Shown: positions 51,049-58,518 of the stretch, one piece after another | Layout: every line of letters starts with the position of its first letter | How positions within the stretch are numbered: the stretch's first letter is position 1 | NCBI GenBank assembly: GCA_965216935.1 | Contig: OZ244217.1 | Span: 1,018,316 to 1,082,315, forward strand | Length of the DNA stretch: 64,000 nt | Direction: 5' to 3' | Source: Acidobacteriota bacterium | GTDB taxonomy: Bacteria; Acidobacteriota; UBA890 | Notes under the pieces: generated by a model | The model's database searches: none | Seen by the model: the letters and a program-made list of their open reading frames with translations, nothing else | What the model was told of the DNA's origin: nothing | Position numbers and translations under genes: made by a program

Positions 51049-53526
51049 TCAGTCTTGTTTCAACGCCACCATCGGGTCCACCGAGGCGGCGTGCCGGGCC
51101 GGAATCGCCGCCGCAACGAACGCGGCGACGACCACCACGGCAACGGCGACGGCGAACGTCACCGGGTCGCGGGTGCCGACGCCGTAGACGATCGAGCCCA
51201 GCGCGCGGAGGCTGCCGAGCGCCGCCAGCACCCCGACGACGATGCCGAGCGCCGTGACCGTTCCGGCGCCGCGCATGACCAGCCGGTAGAGGTCCTTCCG
51301 CTCCGCTCCCAGTGCCTTGCGGACGCCGAGCTCGCGGGTGTGCGTGGCCACGGCAAAGGACAGCACGCCATACAGGCCGACGGTCGCCAGGGTCAGTGCC
51401 GTGACGCCGAAGAAGTTCAGCAACCACATGAGCACACGCTGCTTTGCCAGTGCTTGTGCCAGCCGGTCCTCCATGGAGCGGACGTTGTACACCGGGATCT
51501 TCGGATCGAGCTCGTGGACGATCCGCGAGACCGCCGGCGCAAGCGCGGCGGGGTCGGTCCGAGAGGCGGCGGATCCGTTGCTTGCTTCGGCGTCGATCCG
51601 GAGCACACCGAAGAGCGCCCGCGACGCCGACGCGGCATGCGGCATGAAAACCGCCGGGCGCGTATCGGCATCGAGCCCGTAGTGACGAACCGTTTCCACC
51701 ACGCCGACGATGGTGACGCGCTCGGTGAAGTCGTTGCCGATCCACTTCCCCACGGCATCTTCGACCGGCCAGAAGCGCTCGGCGAAGTCACGATTGACGA
51801 TCGCCACTTGCGGCTCGCCGTCGTCGCCGCTGTCGAACGTGCGCCCGGCGACGACGTCGACCTGCATGGCTTCGAAGTAGCCCGGCGTTGCCACCATGAC
51901 GTCCGCGACGATACGGGCGTCCGGGTTGTCTTCGTTGAATCCCTCGACGACGTAGTCGGTCCAGGCGAGGCCCCGGGTCAGCGGGAGCATCGACGTTCCG
52001 CCCGCATGGGTGACCCCCGGCAGGTTGCCCAGACGGGTGAACACCTGTTCGTAGAAGCGAACTCGTGCGTCCGCGTCCCGGTAGCGGGGCCCCACGAGCG
52101 GGACGCGGAACGACAACGTCCCTTGCGGGTTGAATCCGGGGTCGACCGCCTGCAGCTCACGGAAAGTGCGCACCAGGAGCCCGGCGCCGATGACCAGGAG
52201 CAGCGACAGGGCGACCTGCATGACGACCAGCAGGCGCGAGCCGTCGCGCCGCCAGGCCGAGCGGGCCCCTACCGCGGTGGCGCCCTGGCGCAGGACGTCG
52301 CCCGGCTGGACCCGAGAGGTTCGAATCGCCGGACCCAAGCCGAACAGCAGGCTCGAAAGCAGGCACAGGGCGGCGGCGAAGATCAACACCGGTGCATCGA
52401 CGGCGACGTCGCGCAGACGAGGCAGCTCATCCGGCGCCGCGATGTGGAGCGCTCGCACACCGAGCACCGCCACCGCCAGTCCGCCCGCACCGCCCAGGAG
52501 CGAGAGAAGCAGGCTCTCGATCAGTGCACGCGACATCATGCGACCGCGGTGGGCGCCGAGGGCGGCGCGGATGCCGAGCTCGCGCTGGCGTGTGGCGGCG
52601 CGGGTGAGCATCAGGTTGGCGACGTTGGCGCAGGCGATGGCCAGCAGCGCCGTGGTTGCCGCGAGGAGAACGACGAGATACAAGCGCGCTCCGCCGACGA
52701 TCTGATCGAAGAGCGGCACAACGGCGATGAAAAACTCGCTGCCCACCGTGAGCCCGGCGCCCAGAGCCCCGGGATCGTCGGAAAAGACCTGTGCTACCTC
52801 CAGAAGCTCCGTGTCGAGCCGGTCTCGGGTAGCGTTGGCCCGCAGCTTGCCGATGACGTTGAAGTTTTCCGAGCCACGCGACGAGCGTTGCGGATCCGAC
52901 AGGGGGAACGAGAGCAGCAGGTCGAATTCGGGGACGGTCACCAGCGGCACCATCATATCGGCGTCCAGGACCATCGAGGGCAACACACCGACGACCTCCA
53001 GCCGGTTTCCGTCGATCATCAGCGTGCGGCCGATGAGGGCCGGATCGGCGGAGAACTGCTGGCGGTAGAGGCGCTCTCCCAAGATCACCTTGCGCGGCGC
53101 GTCCGGGACGTCGTCGGTCGCTTCGAACCTCCTCCCGGCGATCGGCATGATGCCCATGACGTCGAAGAAGGACGACGAGACGCGGAGGGCGCCCAGTCGA
53201 GTGGGCTCGAGATCGTCTCCGGTGAGGGTGACCTCCTGTCCGAAGCTCACCGCGACGTGCTCGAGGCTCGTCGCTCCCTCGCGGATGTCGAAGTACTGGG
53301 CCGCCGAGAACCAATCCTCGGTGACGCCGACACCCGGCGCCCGTTGCCACAACATGACCAGGCGGTCCTGGTCGGGGAACGGCAAGGGACGCAACAAGAC
53401 GCCATTGACGACGCTGTAGATCGCGGTCGTGGCGCCGACGGCGAGCGAAAGGGTGATGACCACGACCGCCGAGAACCCGGGCGCCCGAACCAAGGCGCGG
53501 GCAGCGTACTTGAGCTCCTGCATCAT
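51049..53526 (-). CDS. ABC transporter permease with duplicated FtsX/MacB-like domains ('ADOP'-type), no prefix domain
   Basis: The N-terminus is MMQELKYAARALVRAPGFSAVVVITLSLAVGATTAIYSVVNGVLLRP. There are two FtsX 4-TM modules. It is a paralog of 35064..37925 and 55246..57942. Confidence 0.8.
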   Translation of the reverse strand: MMQELKYAARALVRAPGFSAVVVITLSLAVGATTAIYSVVNGVLLRPLPFPDQDRLVMLWQRAPGVGVTEDWFSAAQYFDIREGATSLEHVAVSFGQEVTLTGDDLEPTRLGALRVSSSFFDVMGIMPIAGRRFEATDDVPDAPRKVILGERLYRQQFSADPALIGRTLMIDGNRLEVVGVLPSMVLDADMMVPLVTVPEFDLLLSFPLSDPQRSSRGSENFNVIGKLRANATRDRLDTELLEVAQVFSDDPGALGAGLTVGSEFFIAVVPLFDQIVGGARLYLVVLLAATTALLAIACANVANLMLTRAATRQRELGIRAALGAHRGRMMSRALIESLLLSLLGGAGGLAVAVLGVRALHIAAPDELPRLRDVAVDAPVLIFAAALCLLSSLLFGLGPAIRTSRVQPGDVLRQGATAVGARSAWRRDGSRLLVVMQVALSLLLVIGAGLLVRTFRELQAVDPGFNPQGTLSFRVPLVGPRYRDADARVRFYEQVFTRLGNLPGVTHAGGTSMLPLTRGLAWTDYVVEGFNEDNPDARIVADVMVATPGYFEAMQVDVVAGRTFDSGDDGEPQVAIVNRDFAERFWPVEDAVGKWIGNDFTERVTIVGVVETVRHYGLDADTRPAVFMPHAASASRALFGVLRIDAEASNGSAASRTDPAALAPAVSRIVHELDPKIPVYNVRSMEDRLAQALAKQRVLMWLLNFFGVTALTLATVGLYGVLSFAVATHTRELGVRKALGAERKDLYRLVMRGAGTVTALGIVVGVLAALGSLRALGSIVYGVGTRDPVTFAVAVAVVVVAAFVAAAIPARHAASVDPMVALKQD

Positions 53527-53698: not shown

Positions 53699-54509
53699 GA
53701 TGACGCCGGAGATGCCCAGCCGGTACCATGGGCGCATGACCCTCGTCGCGCCTCTCGTTGCCCTCGGGCTCGCCATGACCCACGCCGCCGCTCCCATCCA
53801 GCGCCAGACACTGACTCTCGACGACGGGTCCGACCTGCGCTACGCGATCTCCGTTCCCGCCGGCTACGACGGATCCGAGCCGGCTCCGATGATCCTGGCT
53901 TTGCATTTCGGCTGGGGAGAGGCGCTGCCGCCGAACTACAGCGCCGTTTTTCTCGAGATCCTGGTGGAGCCGGCCCTACGCGAGCTGGGCGCGATCATCG
54001 TCGCTCCGCTGTGCCCGGCGCGCACCTGGGTGGATCCGCGCAGTGAGGCGGCGGTCCTTTCGCTGCTGGAGCACGTTCGATCGGCGTACCGGATCGACCC
54101 GGCACGCACGGCGGTGACCGGGTTCAGCCTCGGCGGCATGGGGACCTGGTACTACGCCTCGCATCACCCCGAGCTGTTCGCCGCGGCGATTCCGGTTGCC
54201 AGCGTGCCGATGGTGGCGCAAACGACCGAGAGCGGGGCGGAAACGGTGCGGCGTTATGTCGAGTCCGGCAGCGTCGACTGGCCCTCATCCCTGGTCGAGA
54301 TGCCGCTGTACATCATGCACAGCCGCGACGACGAGCTCATTCCCATCGAGCCGGTCGAGCGGGCGACGGCGGAGCTGCGGGCGCTCGGCGCCGAGGTCGA
54401 ATTCCTTGCGATCGACGCCGGCATCGGTCACCACGAAACCCCCCGCTACGTGCCTTTCCTGCAACGCGCGGTGCCGTGGTTGCAGTCCGTCTGGGCAGAT
54501 TCGCGGTGA
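53699..54509 (+). CDS. Alpha/beta hydrolase (esterase/lipase-like), secreted
   Basis: The signal/hydrophobic N-terminus is MTLVAPLVALGLAMTHAAAP. The nucleophile elbow is GFSLGGMGTW (GxSxG). The ALHFGWGE oxyanion region is present. The start is ambiguous (53699 or 53738). The 5' part of the 53526 ORF is antisense to the permease and is rejected. Confidence 0.65.
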
Positions 54510-54660
54510 GCCGCGACCTCGCCGGGGGTATGAGCTGATGCGATACCTGGTCCGGGCCAGGCTCAAGGAAGGCCGGCGCGAAGCCCTCGAGAAGGCGATC
54601 CAGGACGGCAGCCTCGGGGCGGGATCGATCGCCCGCGGTGCCTACGCCAAGGCTATGTGA

Positions 54661-54937
54661 GCAGGCCGTGGTGAACGTGTGATGGGTCTGGCGAAGGGGA
54701 GTTGCGTGAGAGGACAAGGCGAGCCGACGCAGGCGATGCCTGTGCGCATCGTCGAGGAGGCCCAACGTCGTCATCGCGCGCAACCCCCCTTCGCCCAAAG
54801 GGTTACGAGGTAAAGAGGCCGCCTGCGGCGTTCCCGCTCCTCGACGATGCGCATCGGCATCGCCCTCGTCGCGGCGCCTTGCATCCAGCCTCTTTTCCTC
54901 GCAACCAGACCCATCACACGTTCACCACGGCCTGCTA
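54661..54937. repeat. Roughly 277-bp imperfect palindromic element with perfect 31-bp terminal inverted repeats (MITE-like or long-hairpin RNA candidate)
   Basis: 54661-54691 gcaggccgtggtgaacgtgtgatgggtctgg is the exact reverse complement of 54907-54937. The adjacent about 70-100 nt of each arm are also mutually complementary at roughly 80% (for example tgcgcatcgtcgaggag on both arms). It lies in a 735-bp non-coding island. Confidence 0.6.
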
Positions 54938-55245
54938 GAAGCGCGGCGCTTCGACGACGGCTCCATCCGATGGGTCGAAGTCTGTTATTGCCCGACCCCG
55001 TTGGAGGAAGAGACGCCCTACTGGGAGGAGTATTTCGAGCTCGAGCGCGTCGCCAACGCCCACAACCCGGCCAAGTGCCGCGACGAGAACGGCACCGAGC
55101 CCTGGGCGTGCAGCAGCTGCGACTGCACCGAGCGTCTCGAGGCCTGGTTGCAGCGGCAAGGGTCACCGTTTCGTCCATCAACGGACGACGACTGAGGCCC
55201 CGTTTGCAGCTCTGATCGCGCTGCAAGCCCACACGCTGCGGGTGC

Positions 55246-57942
55246 CTACTGATCGCGTCGCAAGACCACCACGGGGTCGATCGCTGCGGCGCGCCGGGCG
55301 GGCAGGCTGCAGGCCAAGAGGGCAACCGCGACGAGCGTCGCGCCGACGGCGACGAAGGTGGCGGGGTCGTTGGGGCTGGTCTCGTACAGTAGGTGGGCGA
55401 ACGCCCGGCCGAGCGCCAGGCCGGCGGCGGTACCGACTGTCAGGCCGAGCGCGGCCAGGGCCGCGCCTTCCAGCAGGATCGCGCGAACCACGGCCGCCGG
55501 GCTTGCGCCGAGCGCGACCCGAACGCCGATCTCCTGCCGGCGGCGGGTGACGCCGTAGGCCATGACGCCGAACACGCCGATGGCGGCGAGGGTCAGCGCC
55601 AATGCCGCGAACCCGGACAGCAGCCAGGTGTTCAGACGCTCCTGCGCCATCGAGCGCTTCGTTCTTTCGACCAGTAGCTCCACCGAGTAGATGGGTAGCT
55701 CGGGGTCTAGGTCGGCGACGACGCGGCGAATTCCGGGTATCAGCGAAGCCGGATCGCCGCTCGAGCGGACAACGTAGGACATGACCGAGCGGGCGTCGTA
55801 CTGGCCGAACGGCCAGTACATTGCCGGGGGCGCCGAGCTGGATGGCCCGGAAAGTCGGACGTCTTCGACCACGCCGACGACTTCGAGCTCGTCCGGATGG
55901 TGACCCCAACCGGTCGTGACCCGGCGACCGATCGGGTTGTCGTCGCCGAAAAGCCGGGTCGCGGCCGTCTGGTTGAGAATGATCACGGGCGGGGCCCCGG
56001 GGACGTCCGTTTCGTCGAAGCTACGGCCCTGCAGCACGCGCGTTCCCATCGCCTCGAGAAAGCCGGGCGTGGTGTGACGGAACTGCACCTGCTCGAGCGG
56101 GGAGGCCTGGTCGCCGACGATGCTCAGCTCGGTCGTCTGCGAGGCGAAGAAGGGCAGCAATCCGACACCGCCGACCGCCTCGACGCCGGGATACCGGGCC
56201 AGCTCGCCGCGCAGCCGTGTACTGAACGCGGCCCAGTCCTCGGTGGCTTCGTATCGGGTCGTCGGCAGGCCGATGCGGAACGTCACCGCTCCCTGAGCAT
56301 CGAAGCCCGCGTCTACGCCCTGAAGCCGGGTCAGGCTCTTGACCAGGAGGCCGGCGCCCAGCACCAGCACGACGGCGAGGGAGATCTCCGCCACCACCAG
56401 GGCGCGATGAAGGCCGAAGCCTCCGCTTCCGGCGAGCGTCCGAGATGCGGACTTCATCGGCGTCGAAAGATCACGCCGAACGGTCCGCAGCGCCGGTATC
56501 AGCCCGACGCCGATACCGGTGACGCAACTGATTGTGAAAGCGAAGCCGAGGATCCGGAGGTCCATCGATACCGAAGTCACGCGTGGCAGCTCGGCCGCCA
56601 ACGTATCGATCGCCGCCCGCACGCCGAGGGACGCGAGCACGACGCCGAGCGCGCCCCCGATCAGCGTCAGCGCCAGGGCTTCGGCGAGAAGCTGGCGCAT
56701 GAGCCGGCCGGTGCTGGCCCCCAGTGCCGAGCGCAGGGCGATCTCCCGGCCGCGCGCGTCCGAGCGCGCCAGCAGGATCGAAGCGACGTTGGTGCAGGCG
56801 ATCAAGAGCAAGATACCAACGGCGCCGAGCAGCATCATCAGCGGCCGGTCGACGTCGCCGAGGATCTGTTCTTGGAGGGGTTGCAGCGTGGCGCCGCGGT
56901 CCTCGTGGGAATCCGGGTGGGCGGCGGCGAGGCGGTCCGCGAAGCCGGCCACTTCTTCGTTCGCGACGGAATGGGGGACTCCCTCGGCGATCCGACCGAT
57001 TACCGGGTACATGTGCCCGCCGCGGTTCCGGAGGCCGCTTTCGGTGATCTCGAACGGCACCCAGAGGGCGGGCTCGCCGCTGCCGAGGTCGATGTTCTCG
57101 GGGGCGATCCCGATGATGGTGTGGTCGACACCGTCCAGGCGCAGCGGCTGGCCGAGAACGGCCCGGTCGGCGCCGTATCGGGTTCGCCAGAAGTTGTTTC
57201 CGAGGATCGTCACCGGGGCCGCGCCCTCGGCTTCGTCGGCGGGCGCGAACGGACGTCCGAGCGCCAGAGGCAACCCCAGCGTCTCGAAGAGCCCCGGGCT
57301 GACCCGCATCCCTCGGATCCGGGAGGCGTCGCCGTCCCGAGAAAGGGTCAACGAGGCCGTTTGATATACGGCGACGCTGTCCAGGTTCGCCACCTGCTCG
57401 CGCAGGTCGACGAAGTCGGGCATCGACAGCGACCAGGTATCGCCGTCGGGCAGTGTCTCGTGGACACGGACGAGACGCTCTGCCGCGGGAAACGGCAGGG
57501 GTTGCAGCAGGACGCCGTTGACGATGGTGAAGACTGCCGTCGTGGCGCCGATGCCCAGCGCCAACGTGAGTAGGATAACGGCGGTTGTCAGCGGCGTCGC
57601 TCGCCAGCCGCGAGCAGCGCTGCGCAGGTCGAAGAACAGGTCGTTCAAGATGTCTCTCCGCGGGGAGCGCGGGGGAGTGGGTGTCGAGGCGTTGGTGCGG
57701 AAGAGCGCGGGTCGGCCGGGTCGCTGCGCCGTCTCGTACCGCTCGCGGAAGGCCGTCGACAGAACGGACCCGAGCTCCTTGCAGGCGAAACGGAGTCGCG
57801 TCCACGGGCCGGCGTCGGTCATCTCTCGAAAACGCTCACGGAAGGTCTCTTCCATGCCGACCCCCCAGGCGTGGCGTGATTCGGCCGGGTACAGTCGCAG
57901 CAGCAACGCGTACGCGCGTATCAGTGGGTGTCCTCGGGTCAT
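55246..57942 (-). CDS. ABC transporter permease with duplicated FtsX/MacB-like domains ('ADOP'-type) and an N-terminal 'permease prefix' domain
   Basis: The N-terminal YALLLRLYPAESRHAWGVGMEETFRERFRE prefix is followed by ILNDLFFDLRSAARGWRATP and two FtsX modules. It is 898 aa. Confidence 0.8.
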   Translation of the reverse strand: MTRGHPLIRAYALLLRLYPAESRHAWGVGMEETFRERFREMTDAGPWTRLRFACKELGSVLSTAFRERYETAQRPGRPALFRTNASTPTPPRSPRRDILNDLFFDLRSAARGWRATPLTTAVILLTLALGIGATTAVFTIVNGVLLQPLPFPAAERLVRVHETLPDGDTWSLSMPDFVDLREQVANLDSVAVYQTASLTLSRDGDASRIRGMRVSPGLFETLGLPLALGRPFAPADEAEGAAPVTILGNNFWRTRYGADRAVLGQPLRLDGVDHTIIGIAPENIDLGSGEPALWVPFEITESGLRNRGGHMYPVIGRIAEGVPHSVANEEVAGFADRLAAAHPDSHEDRGATLQPLQEQILGDVDRPLMMLLGAVGILLLIACTNVASILLARSDARGREIALRSALGASTGRLMRQLLAEALALTLIGGALGVVLASLGVRAAIDTLAAELPRVTSVSMDLRILGFAFTISCVTGIGVGLIPALRTVRRDLSTPMKSASRTLAGSGGFGLHRALVVAEISLAVVLVLGAGLLVKSLTRLQGVDAGFDAQGAVTFRIGLPTTRYEATEDWAAFSTRLRGELARYPGVEAVGGVGLLPFFASQTTELSIVGDQASPLEQVQFRHTTPGFLEAMGTRVLQGRSFDETDVPGAPPVIILNQTAATRLFGDDNPIGRRVTTGWGHHPDELEVVGVVEDVRLSGPSSSAPPAMYWPFGQYDARSVMSYVVRSSGDPASLIPGIRRVVADLDPELPIYSVELLVERTKRSMAQERLNTWLLSGFAALALTLAAIGVFGVMAYGVTRRRQEIGVRVALGASPAAVVRAILLEGAALAALGLTVGTAAGLALGRAFAHLLYETSPNDPATFVAVGATLVAVALLACSLPARRAAAIDPVVVLRRDQ

Positions 57943-57952
57943 CGGATCGGCC

Positions 57953-58297
57953 TCAACCGCCGGTGAGCAGGCGCTTCTTGCGGGCGTCGACGACGAGGGC
58001 GCTGAGGCGACGGGCTTCCGCCTCGGCCACCTTGCGTCCCAGGTCGGTCAGCCGGTAGCTAAGCCGGCGACTGTCGTCGACCGCACCGGGCGCGTCCTCG
58101 ATGAGCCCGTCCTGGCTCAACCGCTTGAGCACCTGATAGAGCGACCCGGTCGCGGGGTTCAGCATGCCTTCGGATCGGCGCTCGACCTCTTTGCCGATGG
58201 CGTAGCCGTGCGCCGGCCCGTCGCCGAGCGCCAGCAGCACATGGAAGGCGAGGTTGGTGAGCGGCAGGAAGCCGCGCGGGTCCGGCAGCGTGCTCAT
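57953..58297 (-). CDS. PadR family transcriptional regulator
   Basis: MSTLPDPRGFLPLTNLAFHVLLALGDGPAHGYAIGKEVERRSEGMLNPATGSLYQVLKRLSQDGLI is the PadR wHTH. It lies 10 nt upstream of the permease gene. The start is taken at the ATG at 58297 rather than the ORF track's 58462. Confidence 0.75.
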   Translation of the reverse strand: MSTLPDPRGFLPLTNLAFHVLLALGDGPAHGYAIGKEVERRSEGMLNPATGSLYQVLKRLSQDGLIEDAPGAVDDSRRLSYRLTDLGRKVAEAEARRLSALVVDARKKRLLTGG

Positions 58298-58518
58298 GAT
58301 CGACCTTCTCCTCGATGGGGACGGGCACGTGGTTTCGACTACCGTGAGGGGCGGCGCGTGGTTCCGACTATAGTGGTTGCCACTATACATGCGCAAGTGT
58401 CCGACAAGCGGCGCCCCGGGGCTCGGGCTCACGCGCCCTCGGCGGGCGGGGGCGGCGTCCACCCGCGTTCGGATGATCGGCAGCTGTTTCGGTGCCTCGA
58501 GTCGATGCCCGCCGGGCG

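What the first reader, a model, noticed from the sequence alone, without database searches (positions are those of the whole stretch)
54661..54937. 277-bp palindromic element with perfect 31-bp terminal inverted repeats in a long non-coding island
Seen in sequence. gcaggccgtggtgaacgtgtgatgggtctgg at 54661-54691 is exactly reverse-complementary to 54907-54937. The arms interior to the termini remain about 80% complementary for another about 70-100 nt (shared tgcgcatcgtcgaggag, gcgatgcc, caaggcg). So the whole element could fold into a roughly 100-bp-stem hairpin with a roughly 70-nt central region. This is the architecture of a MITE (miniature inverted-repeat transposable element), of an IS remnant that lost its transposase, or of a large structured RNA or attenuator. 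It sits in an unusually long (735 bp) intergenic region of an otherwise tightly packed window. It lies between an esterase gene and a PadR-regulated permease.
Basis: seen in the sequence. Interest (0 to 1): 0.65.

Follow-up and report, generated by a model that had tools for sequence, protein, structure and literature searches.

The report
Mobile palindromic repeat splitting a gene
A 275-bp transposase-less mobile repeat (a MITE) from a family scattered through uncultured Acidobacteriota has inserted into a small conserved gene and knocked it out; this is an ordinary kind of element, but the family appears undescribed and the "non-coding island" is really a broken gene.

Summary
The inverted repeat is real. 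The setting was misread. The "735-bp intergenic island" is a small conserved gene cut in two by the element: codons 1-40 at 54538-54657 and codons 42-126 at 54938-55195. Joined, the halves match more than 7,500 uninterrupted homologs. Syntenic relatives carry the intact gene with one codon where the window has 280 nt, so the net insertion is 277 nt. The element belongs to a dispersed repeat family in Acidobacteriota genomes and sediment metagenomes: 37 half-element matches in 310 kb, including four two-ended copies. Nineteen of 30 termini abut TA within a Y-T-A-R motif, the same flank geometry as IS630/Tc1-mariner elements. The window's left flank is GA, not TA, so the duplication is imperfect. 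The family's conserved fold is Y-shaped, a terminal stem plus two co-varying hairpins, not one 100-bp stem. I found no partner transposase. Verdict: a MITE insertion that made a pseudogene. It is a new member of a known kind and of low to moderate interest.

The parts
54538..54657 (+). 5' half of the split gene (codons 1-40, MRYLV...AYAKAM). Reading now ends at TGA 54658-54660, which straddles the insertion junction.
   Evidence: Translation. It aligns to residues 1-40 of uninterrupted homologs.
54659..54660 (.). Left flanking dinucleotide GA, where the family rule predicts TA.
   Evidence: Flank tally and position profile. Empty sites in relatives read CGA or AGG here.
54661..54691 (+). Left terminal inverted repeat, GCAGGCCGTGGTGAACGTGTGATGGGTCTGG. 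It has 0 mismatches to the family consensus.
54690..54795 (+). Internal hairpin A (left module). Its stem co-varies between copies.
   Evidence: Inverted repeat I3. Consensus fold and pair counts: 8 of 37 pairs changed on both sides, 0 of 500 shuffles reach this.
54801..54906 (+). Internal hairpin B (right module), an inverted homolog of module A. Its stem co-varies between copies.
   Evidence: 9 of 38 pairs changed on both sides, 0 of 500 shuffles. The core of A is 79% complementary to the core of B (I1).
54905..54935 (-). Right terminal inverted repeat, the exact reverse complement of the left one.
54936..54937 (.). Right flanking TA, within cTA|G when read outward. This is the family's canonical flank.
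54938..55195 (+). 3' half of the split gene (85 codons EARRFDDGSIRWVEVCYCP... plus stop), shifted by +1 frame relative to the 5' half.
   Evidence: Translation. It aligns to the C-terminal two thirds of homologs and keeps every invariant residue.
53736..54509 (+). Upstream neighbour: alpha/beta hydrolase (Peptidase_S9 / esterase). It is syntenic with relatives that carry the intact small gene.
55246..57942 (-). Downstream convergent neighbour: MacB_PCD/FtsX permease, with a PadR gene at 57953-58462 on the minus strand.

Best explanation
The feature is a complete, apparently recent copy of a non-autonomous transposable element (MITE). It is 275 nt long (54661-54935), has 31-nt terminal inverted repeats, and has no coding capacity. 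It belongs to a repeat family dispersed in uncultured Acidobacteriota. It inserted into codon 41 of a small conserved gene of unknown function, about 125 codons long. The insertion terminates the reading frame at a junctional TGA and shifts the 3' part by +1, so the gene is now a pseudogene. Shown here: the insertion, the family, the conserved termini and the TA-rich Y-T-A-R flanks. Inferred: a DDE transposase supplied in trans binds the two termini, excises the element and integrates it at a TA within YTAR. That transposase would be IS630/Tc1-mariner-like (TA duplication) or IS5-like (4-bp YTAR duplication). Internally the element is an inverted dimer of one module, a 31-nt head plus a hairpin of about 105 nt. 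This is why it can fold either as one long hairpin or as a Y. Only the Y (terminal stem plus two hairpins) is conserved across copies.
For: Split gene: the halves translate cleanly in frames that differ by 1. Joined, they hit 7,556 proteins, the best at 85% identity over about 121 aa. All 49 invariant columns are retained.

Empty sites: the syntenic loci L005-L007 (permease, esterase, intact gene) and L036 have a single codon, AGG or CGA, where the window has 280 nt. The net insertion is therefore 277 nt, which equals 275 + 2.

Family: the terminus occurs in 4 loci of 3 Acidobacteriota MAGs and in 28 metagenome loci. nhmmer finds 37 half-element matches in 310 kb. Four copies are two-ended: the window, L001, L002 and L010.

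Flanks: TA lies directly outside 19 of 30 distinct termini against a 1.5% background, P = 7e-28. The position profile is Y(28/30) T(22/30) A(26/30) | R(28/30), with background from -4 outward. A real IS630 copy shows the same geometry, C-TA|IS|TA-G. IS630-family elements insert at TA and duplicate it (PMC2170065).

Recency: both window termini match the family consensus 31/31, and the gene halves carry no other lesions.

Structure: hairpins A and B co-vary.
Against: The window copy does not have a clean duplication: GA on the left, TA on the right. Relatives' empty sites (CGA, AGG) contain no TA. The TA-duplication model therefore needs an unobserved TTA ancestor plus a later T-to-G change. 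A no-duplication reading (CGA ancestor plus one C-to-T change) is at least as parsimonious. Only 1 of 4 two-ended copies has matching TA on both sides. No autonomous element was found: no terminus pairs at IS-like spacing, and no tblastn match to four divergent IS630-family transposases in the window or 36 loci, best E 0.013. The IS630 terminal sequence itself is unrelated. Co-varying internal hairpins are not required by a simple DDE cut-and-paste model. The window's own genome could not be found, so its copy number there is unknown.
Confidence: 0.8

Rival explanations
1. The element is a structure-dependent non-autonomous element moved as single-stranded DNA by a HUH/Y1 transposase, in the manner of IS200/IS605-derived PATEs or REPINs with RAYT. 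It would insert without target duplication, and the enzyme would recognise the hairpins.
For: Both internal hairpins are maintained by paired changes. The window junction is most simply read as an insertion without duplication next to an ancestral CGA codon. Many one-ended fragments exist.
Against: Both ends carry the same 31-nt non-palindromic sequence in inverted orientation, and both show the same palindromic Y-T-A-R flank. IS200/IS605 elements lack terminal inverted repeats and use a one-sided target (my knowledge). REP units are 20-40 bp palindromes with GTAG or CGTC heads (PMC3733652 abstract), which is not the case here. No such transposase was found in the held loci, but no specific search for one was run.
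Confidence: 0.1
2. The element is a cis-acting structured RNA (attenuator, terminator or sRNA) that the host selected at this locus.
For: The fold is extremely stable on either strand. Stems co-vary, and there are a few conserved G-U pairs on the plus strand.
Against: No Rfam family reaches threshold. The only hit is a plant miRNA hairpin at 42.7 bits against a gathering score of 137. There are no promoter-like or terminator-like sites. Copies lie at unrelated loci next to unrelated genes. Here it destroys a coding sequence that is intact in relatives. Neither strand is clearly favoured.
Confidence: 0.04
3. The element is an intervening sequence that is removed or bypassed (intron-like splicing, RNase III cut and religation, or ribosome hopping), so the gene still works.
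For: The two gene halves are otherwise undamaged, and removing exactly 277 nt restores the frame.
Against: Removal at the repeat boundaries leaves an in-frame TGA (sequence). There is no intron family hit. No matching take-off and landing codons flank the element (sequence). Other family members are mostly outside genes. Intact halves are equally expected after a recent insertion.
Confidence: 0.03
4. The feature is a local inverted duplication or a metagenome assembly artefact, not a mobile element.
For: The source looks like a MAG. The repeat often coincides with contig ends, so junction bases such as the odd GA could be chimeric.
Against: The same element, with the same ends, occurs in independent assemblies from several projects and in two-ended form in L001, L002 and L010. 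The interior has no other match in the window.
Confidence: 0.03

Closest known systems
RUP (repeat unit of pneumococcus), a MITE thought to be mobilised by IS630-Spn1
   Same: It is non-coding, has terminal inverted repeats, is TA-flanked and multi-copy, and can inactivate genes it lands in (PMC2229807).
   Different: RUP is 107 bp with short repeats that resemble a known IS. This element is 275 bp with 31-nt repeats, has two co-varying internal hairpins, and has no identified partner IS.
Correia / NEMIS elements of Neisseria
   Same: They have terminal repeats of about 24 bp, TA at the termini, size variants that differ by internal segments, and transcripts that form long stem-loops. No partner transposase is known (PMC2229807).
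   Different: Correia elements are 107-155 bp and carry an IHF site and promoter elements. No promoter-like site was found here. The sequences and the host phylum are unrelated.
CIR repeats of Caulobacter and Brucella
   Same: Their RNA model has two separate long stem-loops joined by a linker (PMC2229807), like hairpins A and B here.
   Different: CIRs lack terminal inverted repeats and carry a GANTC methylation motif. This element has strong 31-nt terminal repeats that close the two arms into a Y.
IS630 / ISY100 (bacterial Tc1-mariner relatives) and eukaryotic Stowaway MITEs
   Same: They share the flank geometry: a TA duplication, often inside CTAG. This was seen directly in a Shigella IS630 copy and shown in vitro for ISY100, where 5 of 39 junctions were irregular (PMC2170065).
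   Different: The terminal sequences are unrelated, and no IS630-type transposase was found near any copy. A 4-bp YTAR duplication (IS5-type; my knowledge) fits the flanks equally well.

Membership tests
MITE (generic non-autonomous DNA transposon) | Terminal inverted repeats of at least 10-15 bp | tested here: met
   31-32 nt perfect repeats in the window, conserved across 30 termini.
MITE (generic non-autonomous DNA transposon) | Small size and no transposase gene | tested here: met
   275 nt. The only internal ORFs are 44 and 78 aa, on the list of mechanical ORFs.
MITE (generic non-autonomous DNA transposon) | Multiple dispersed copies at unrelated sites | tested here: met
   in other genomes and metagenomes. 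Copy number in the source genome itself is not testable: only one copy lies in the 64-kb window.
MITE (generic non-autonomous DNA transposon) | Filled versus empty site at an orthologous position | tested here: met
   L005-L007 and L036 carry the intact gene in the same synteny. The net insertion is 277 nt.
MITE (generic non-autonomous DNA transposon) | Target-site duplication flanking the element | tested here: inconclusive
   TA abuts 19 of 30 termini, and the net insertion equals 275 + 2. However, the window has GA on the left and TA on the right, and only L001 has TA on both sides.
IS630/Tc1-mariner-mobilised MITE | Terminal repeats similar to those of an IS630-family element in the same host | tested here: not met
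   There is no similarity to the IS630 termini. No terminus pair at IS spacing and no IS630-type transposase were found in the 310 kb held. An unknown acidobacterial partner cannot be excluded.
IS630/Tc1-mariner-mobilised MITE | Insertion at TA with a 2-bp TA duplication | tested here: inconclusive
   The Y-T-A-R flank profile fits a TA duplication, but it fits a 4-bp YTAR duplication equally well. The window junction is irregular.
REP / REPIN (RAYT-associated) | A 20-40 bp self-palindromic unit with a GTAG or CGTC head | tested here: not met
   The 31-nt head is not self-complementary and begins (TA)GCAGG. The definition is from the PMC3733652 abstract.
IS200/IS605-derived PATE | No terminal inverted repeats, a one-sided target motif and no duplication | tested here: not met
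   Both ends have identical inverted 31-nt termini and the same flank motif.
Any curated RNA family (Rfam 15), including group I/II introns and riboswitches | A covariance-model match at the gathering score | tested here: not met
   The only hit is MIR1858 at 42.7 bits against a gathering score of 137.

The most novel reading that the evidence does not exclude
The family may be a previously undescribed class of structure-dependent mobile repeat in Acidobacteriota. In this reading it is an inverted dimer of a 'head plus hairpin' module, and its Y-shaped fold is needed for mobility (for example a single-stranded or cruciform intermediate recognised by an unknown enzyme that inserts without a true duplication) or for an RNA-level role. 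The fold is maintained by paired substitutions in both arms.
Probability: 0.12. Interest if true: 0.55.

Novelty: new member of a known kind. Interest (0 to 1): 0.25.

Why it matters
For annotation, the 735-bp "gap" should be called a pseudogene plus a mobile element, not intergenic DNA. The repeat breaks metagenome assemblies of these Acidobacteriota, because many matches lie at contig ends, and it could mislead MAG binning and ORF calling. The pristine copy suggests a transposition system that is still active in an uncultured lineage where little is known about mobile DNA. Its termini are a ready probe for finding the partner transposase. The insertion is also a natural knock-out of a very widespread, uncharacterised, cysteine-rich small protein family.

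Tried and rejected
- Rfam scan with permissive thresholds: only a sub-threshold plant miRNA hairpin.
- Pfam, NCBIfam and PDB searches for the split gene: no match.
- Element against viral contigs, plasmids and phages: no match.
- Exact-protein look-ups of the window's esterase, permease and 40-aa stub, to find the same strain: not on record.
- Search for an autonomous parent. No terminus pairs at 0.7-3 kb. ORFs inside solo termini look like ordinary or spurious high-GC ORFs. tblastn with IS630-family transposases from Shigella, Streptomyces, Sinorhizobium and Salmonella found nothing.
- Promoter and terminator scan: none.
- Single long hairpin as the conserved structure: rejected. L001 breaks 25 of 77 interior pairs and has 2 compensatory changes.
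- 3-bp (TNA) duplication and bypass or splice parses of the junction: rejected on reading frame and sequence.
- Using homolog residues to fix the ancestral codon: failed, because the position is hypervariable, with 12 residue types among 120 homologs and Leu in 3.
- A first fuzzy-regex scan timed out and was replaced by a vectorised scan.

Full report
**1. Observation**

The sequence shows a perfect inverted repeat of 32 nt, at 54660-54691 and 54905-54936. A search allowing 3 mismatches finds only these two sites in the 64-kb window, and none in 100 shuffles. Inside the termini, 54715-54770 and 54826-54881 are 79% complementary over 56 nt. The 277-nt stretch folds at -187.5 kcal/mol on the plus strand (z = -15) and -194.2 on the minus strand (z = -14). 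The repeat is real and far beyond chance.

**2. The "non-coding island" is a split gene**

Directly left of the element, an ATG at 54538 opens a 40-codon reading frame that ends at TGA 54658-54660. Directly right of it, 54938-55195 encodes 85 residues and a stop, in a frame shifted by +1.

- The two pieces joined give a 125-aa protein with 7,556 database matches. The best are 121-130 aa and up to 85% identical over nearly the full length.
- The alignment keeps all 49 invariant columns. Homologs have exactly one residue between "KAM" and "EARR".
- The window has 280 nt between those codons, so the net insertion is 277 nt.
- Contigs encoding the closest homologs give orthologous empty sites. L005-L007 have the same gene order (MacB-type permease, S9/esterase, intact 121-aa gene) and read ATG AGG GAA GCG. 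L036 reads ATG CGA GAG GCG.
- The window reads ATG TGA [GCAGG...CCTGC] TA GAA GCG.

**3. A dispersed repeat family**

- A 22-nt word from the terminus occurs in four loci of three Acidobacteriota MAGs. A 19-base pattern occurs in 28 metagenome loci, often at contig ends.
- It does not occur in viral contigs, plasmids or phages.
- BLAST, a mismatch scan and profile HMMs map 37 half-element matches in 310 kb.
- Four copies have both ends: the window (275 nt), L001 (277 nt), L010 (189 nt) and L002 (168 nt).
- The remainder are one-ended pieces of 25-150 nt, which looks like a decay series. Long palindromes are deletion-prone (my knowledge).
- One MAG has four members in 13.7 kb of held sequence.
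- The window's genome itself is in none of the collections.

**4. Ends and target**

- Among 30 distinct termini, the dinucleotide directly outside GCAGG... is TA in 19, against a 1.5% background (P = 7e-28). CTA occurs in 13 and TTA in 5.
- The position profile is Y (28/30), T (22/30), A (26/30) | R (28/30), with background from -4 outward. This is the palindrome Y-T-A-R centred on the T|A step.
- A genuine IS630 copy fetched for comparison shows the same geometry, gatC-TA|AATAGCTGCGCGG...|TA-Ggatc, although its terminal sequence is unrelated.
- IS630-family elements insert at TA and duplicate it. In vitro, 5 of 39 ISY100 products had irregular junctions, including three with TA on one side and only A on the other (PMC2170065).
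- Two parses fit the net 277 nt equally well: 275 nt plus a TA duplication, or 273 nt plus a 4-bp YTAR duplication (IS5-type; my knowledge).

The window copy is irregular. The right flank is the canonical cTA, but the left flank is tGA. A TA-duplication model needs a TTA ancestor plus a T-to-G change. The relatives' CGA suggests instead a C-to-T change and no true duplication. The residue is hypervariable in homologs, so this stays open. In all four two-ended copies the right flank is canonical, while the left is TGA, TTA, CCA and CCA. This asymmetry is unexplained, and the sample is small.

**5. Internal anatomy**

- The left and right halves are homologous in inverted orientation. The self-match is 70.7% over 283 nt, and the central cores are 79% complementary. 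The element is therefore an inverted dimer of one module: a 31-nt head plus a hairpin of about 105 nt.
On that model, L001 breaks 25 of 77 interior pairs and has 2 compensatory changes.
- L001 and the window's minus strand fold as a Y.
- Each sub-hairpin is conserved with changes on both sides of pairs. Hairpin A has 8 of 37 pairs in 3 copies, and hairpin B has 9 of 38 in 4 copies.
- Both controls support this. No shuffle out of 500 reaches the observed counts, and slid registers give 0-2 paired changes. The caveat is that only 3-4 sequences were available.
- In the window copy, the Y fold and the long hairpin differ by only 4-10 kcal/mol.
- The co-variation could reflect selection for structure or arm-to-arm correction in palindromes. 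I cannot tell which.

**6. Mechanism**

Shown: an insertion of a repeat-family member into a gene, with conserved termini and TA-rich palindromic flanks. Inferred: cut-and-paste by a DDE transposase supplied in trans.

No partner was found. There are no terminus pairs at IS-like spacing, and four divergent IS630-family transposases give no tblastn hit in the window or loci. Only 310 kb was available, and multi-copy ISs rarely assemble in MAGs.

The consequence here is a truncated 40-aa product and an untranslated 3' part. The next gene is convergent, so no polar effect is expected. The perfect, consensus-identical termini and otherwise intact gene halves argue for a recent event.

**7. Comparison and verdict**

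The element behaves like the TA-flanked bacterial MITEs RUP, Correia/NEMIS and ERIC, and its two-arm fold recalls CIR repeats (PMC2229807). It is larger, at 275 bp against about 100-200 bp. Its terminal repeats are longer, and its sequence is unrelated to theirs. I found no description of it: no Rfam match, and nothing specific in a literature search on MITEs in Acidobacteria.

It meets the generic MITE criteria except for a clean target duplication, which is inconclusive. Assignment to an IS630-derived subgroup is not established. It is a new member of a known kind, and interest is low to moderate. The open points are the irregular junction, the co-varying hairpins and the missing transposase.

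Noticed in passing
window 54538-54657 + 54938-55195; L005 2493-2858; L036 309-674: The interrupted gene belongs to a very large uncharacterised family. It has 7,556 hits of about 121-130 aa, no Pfam or NCBIfam model and no PDB relative. It has six invariant cysteines (C56, C58, C87, C98, C101, C103), which hints at a metal-binding or redox protein. In relatives its ATG overlaps the stop codon of the upstream esterase gene.
   Followed up: partly
window 51049-53526 (-), 55246-57942 (-), 57953-58462 (-): Two long MacB_PCD/FtsX permeases flank the locus, and the second is preceded by a PadR regulator. Relatives share the permease-esterase-small gene order.
   Followed up: partly
window 55212-55232 and 55249-55269: A 21-nt direct repeat (86% identical, 37 nt apart) lies at the junction of the two convergent genes and overlaps the 3' end of the permease gene.
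   Followed up: no
L009, L010, L011, L013, L019, L023, L027 (matches within about 280 nt of a contig end): The repeat often lies at metagenome contig ends, so it appears to break assemblies of these Acidobacteriota.
   Followed up: no
L001 2242-2518 and 7818-7883; L003 3220-3273 and 5502-5642: One MAG (Acidobacteria bacterium B66T1B5) carries four family members within 13.7 kb of held sequence. The repeat density there is much higher than in the window, which has one copy in 64 kb.
   Followed up: partly
L017 5453-5493: A canonical tTA-flanked terminus is followed by an unrelated, AT-richer interior (tcaaaagggcccccagtggcctgtaaaagg...). It may be a different subfamily or the end of a longer element.
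   Followed up: no
window 54675-54921, both strands: There is a sub-threshold Rfam match to the plant MIR1858 precursor (42.7 bits against a gathering score of 137). This is a generic long-hairpin artefact.
   Followed up: yes
two-ended copies: window, L001, L002, L010: In all four, the right flank is a perfect [C/T]TA, while the left flank is TGA, TTA, CCA and CCA. This is an unexplained left/right asymmetry, and the sample is small.
   Followed up: partly
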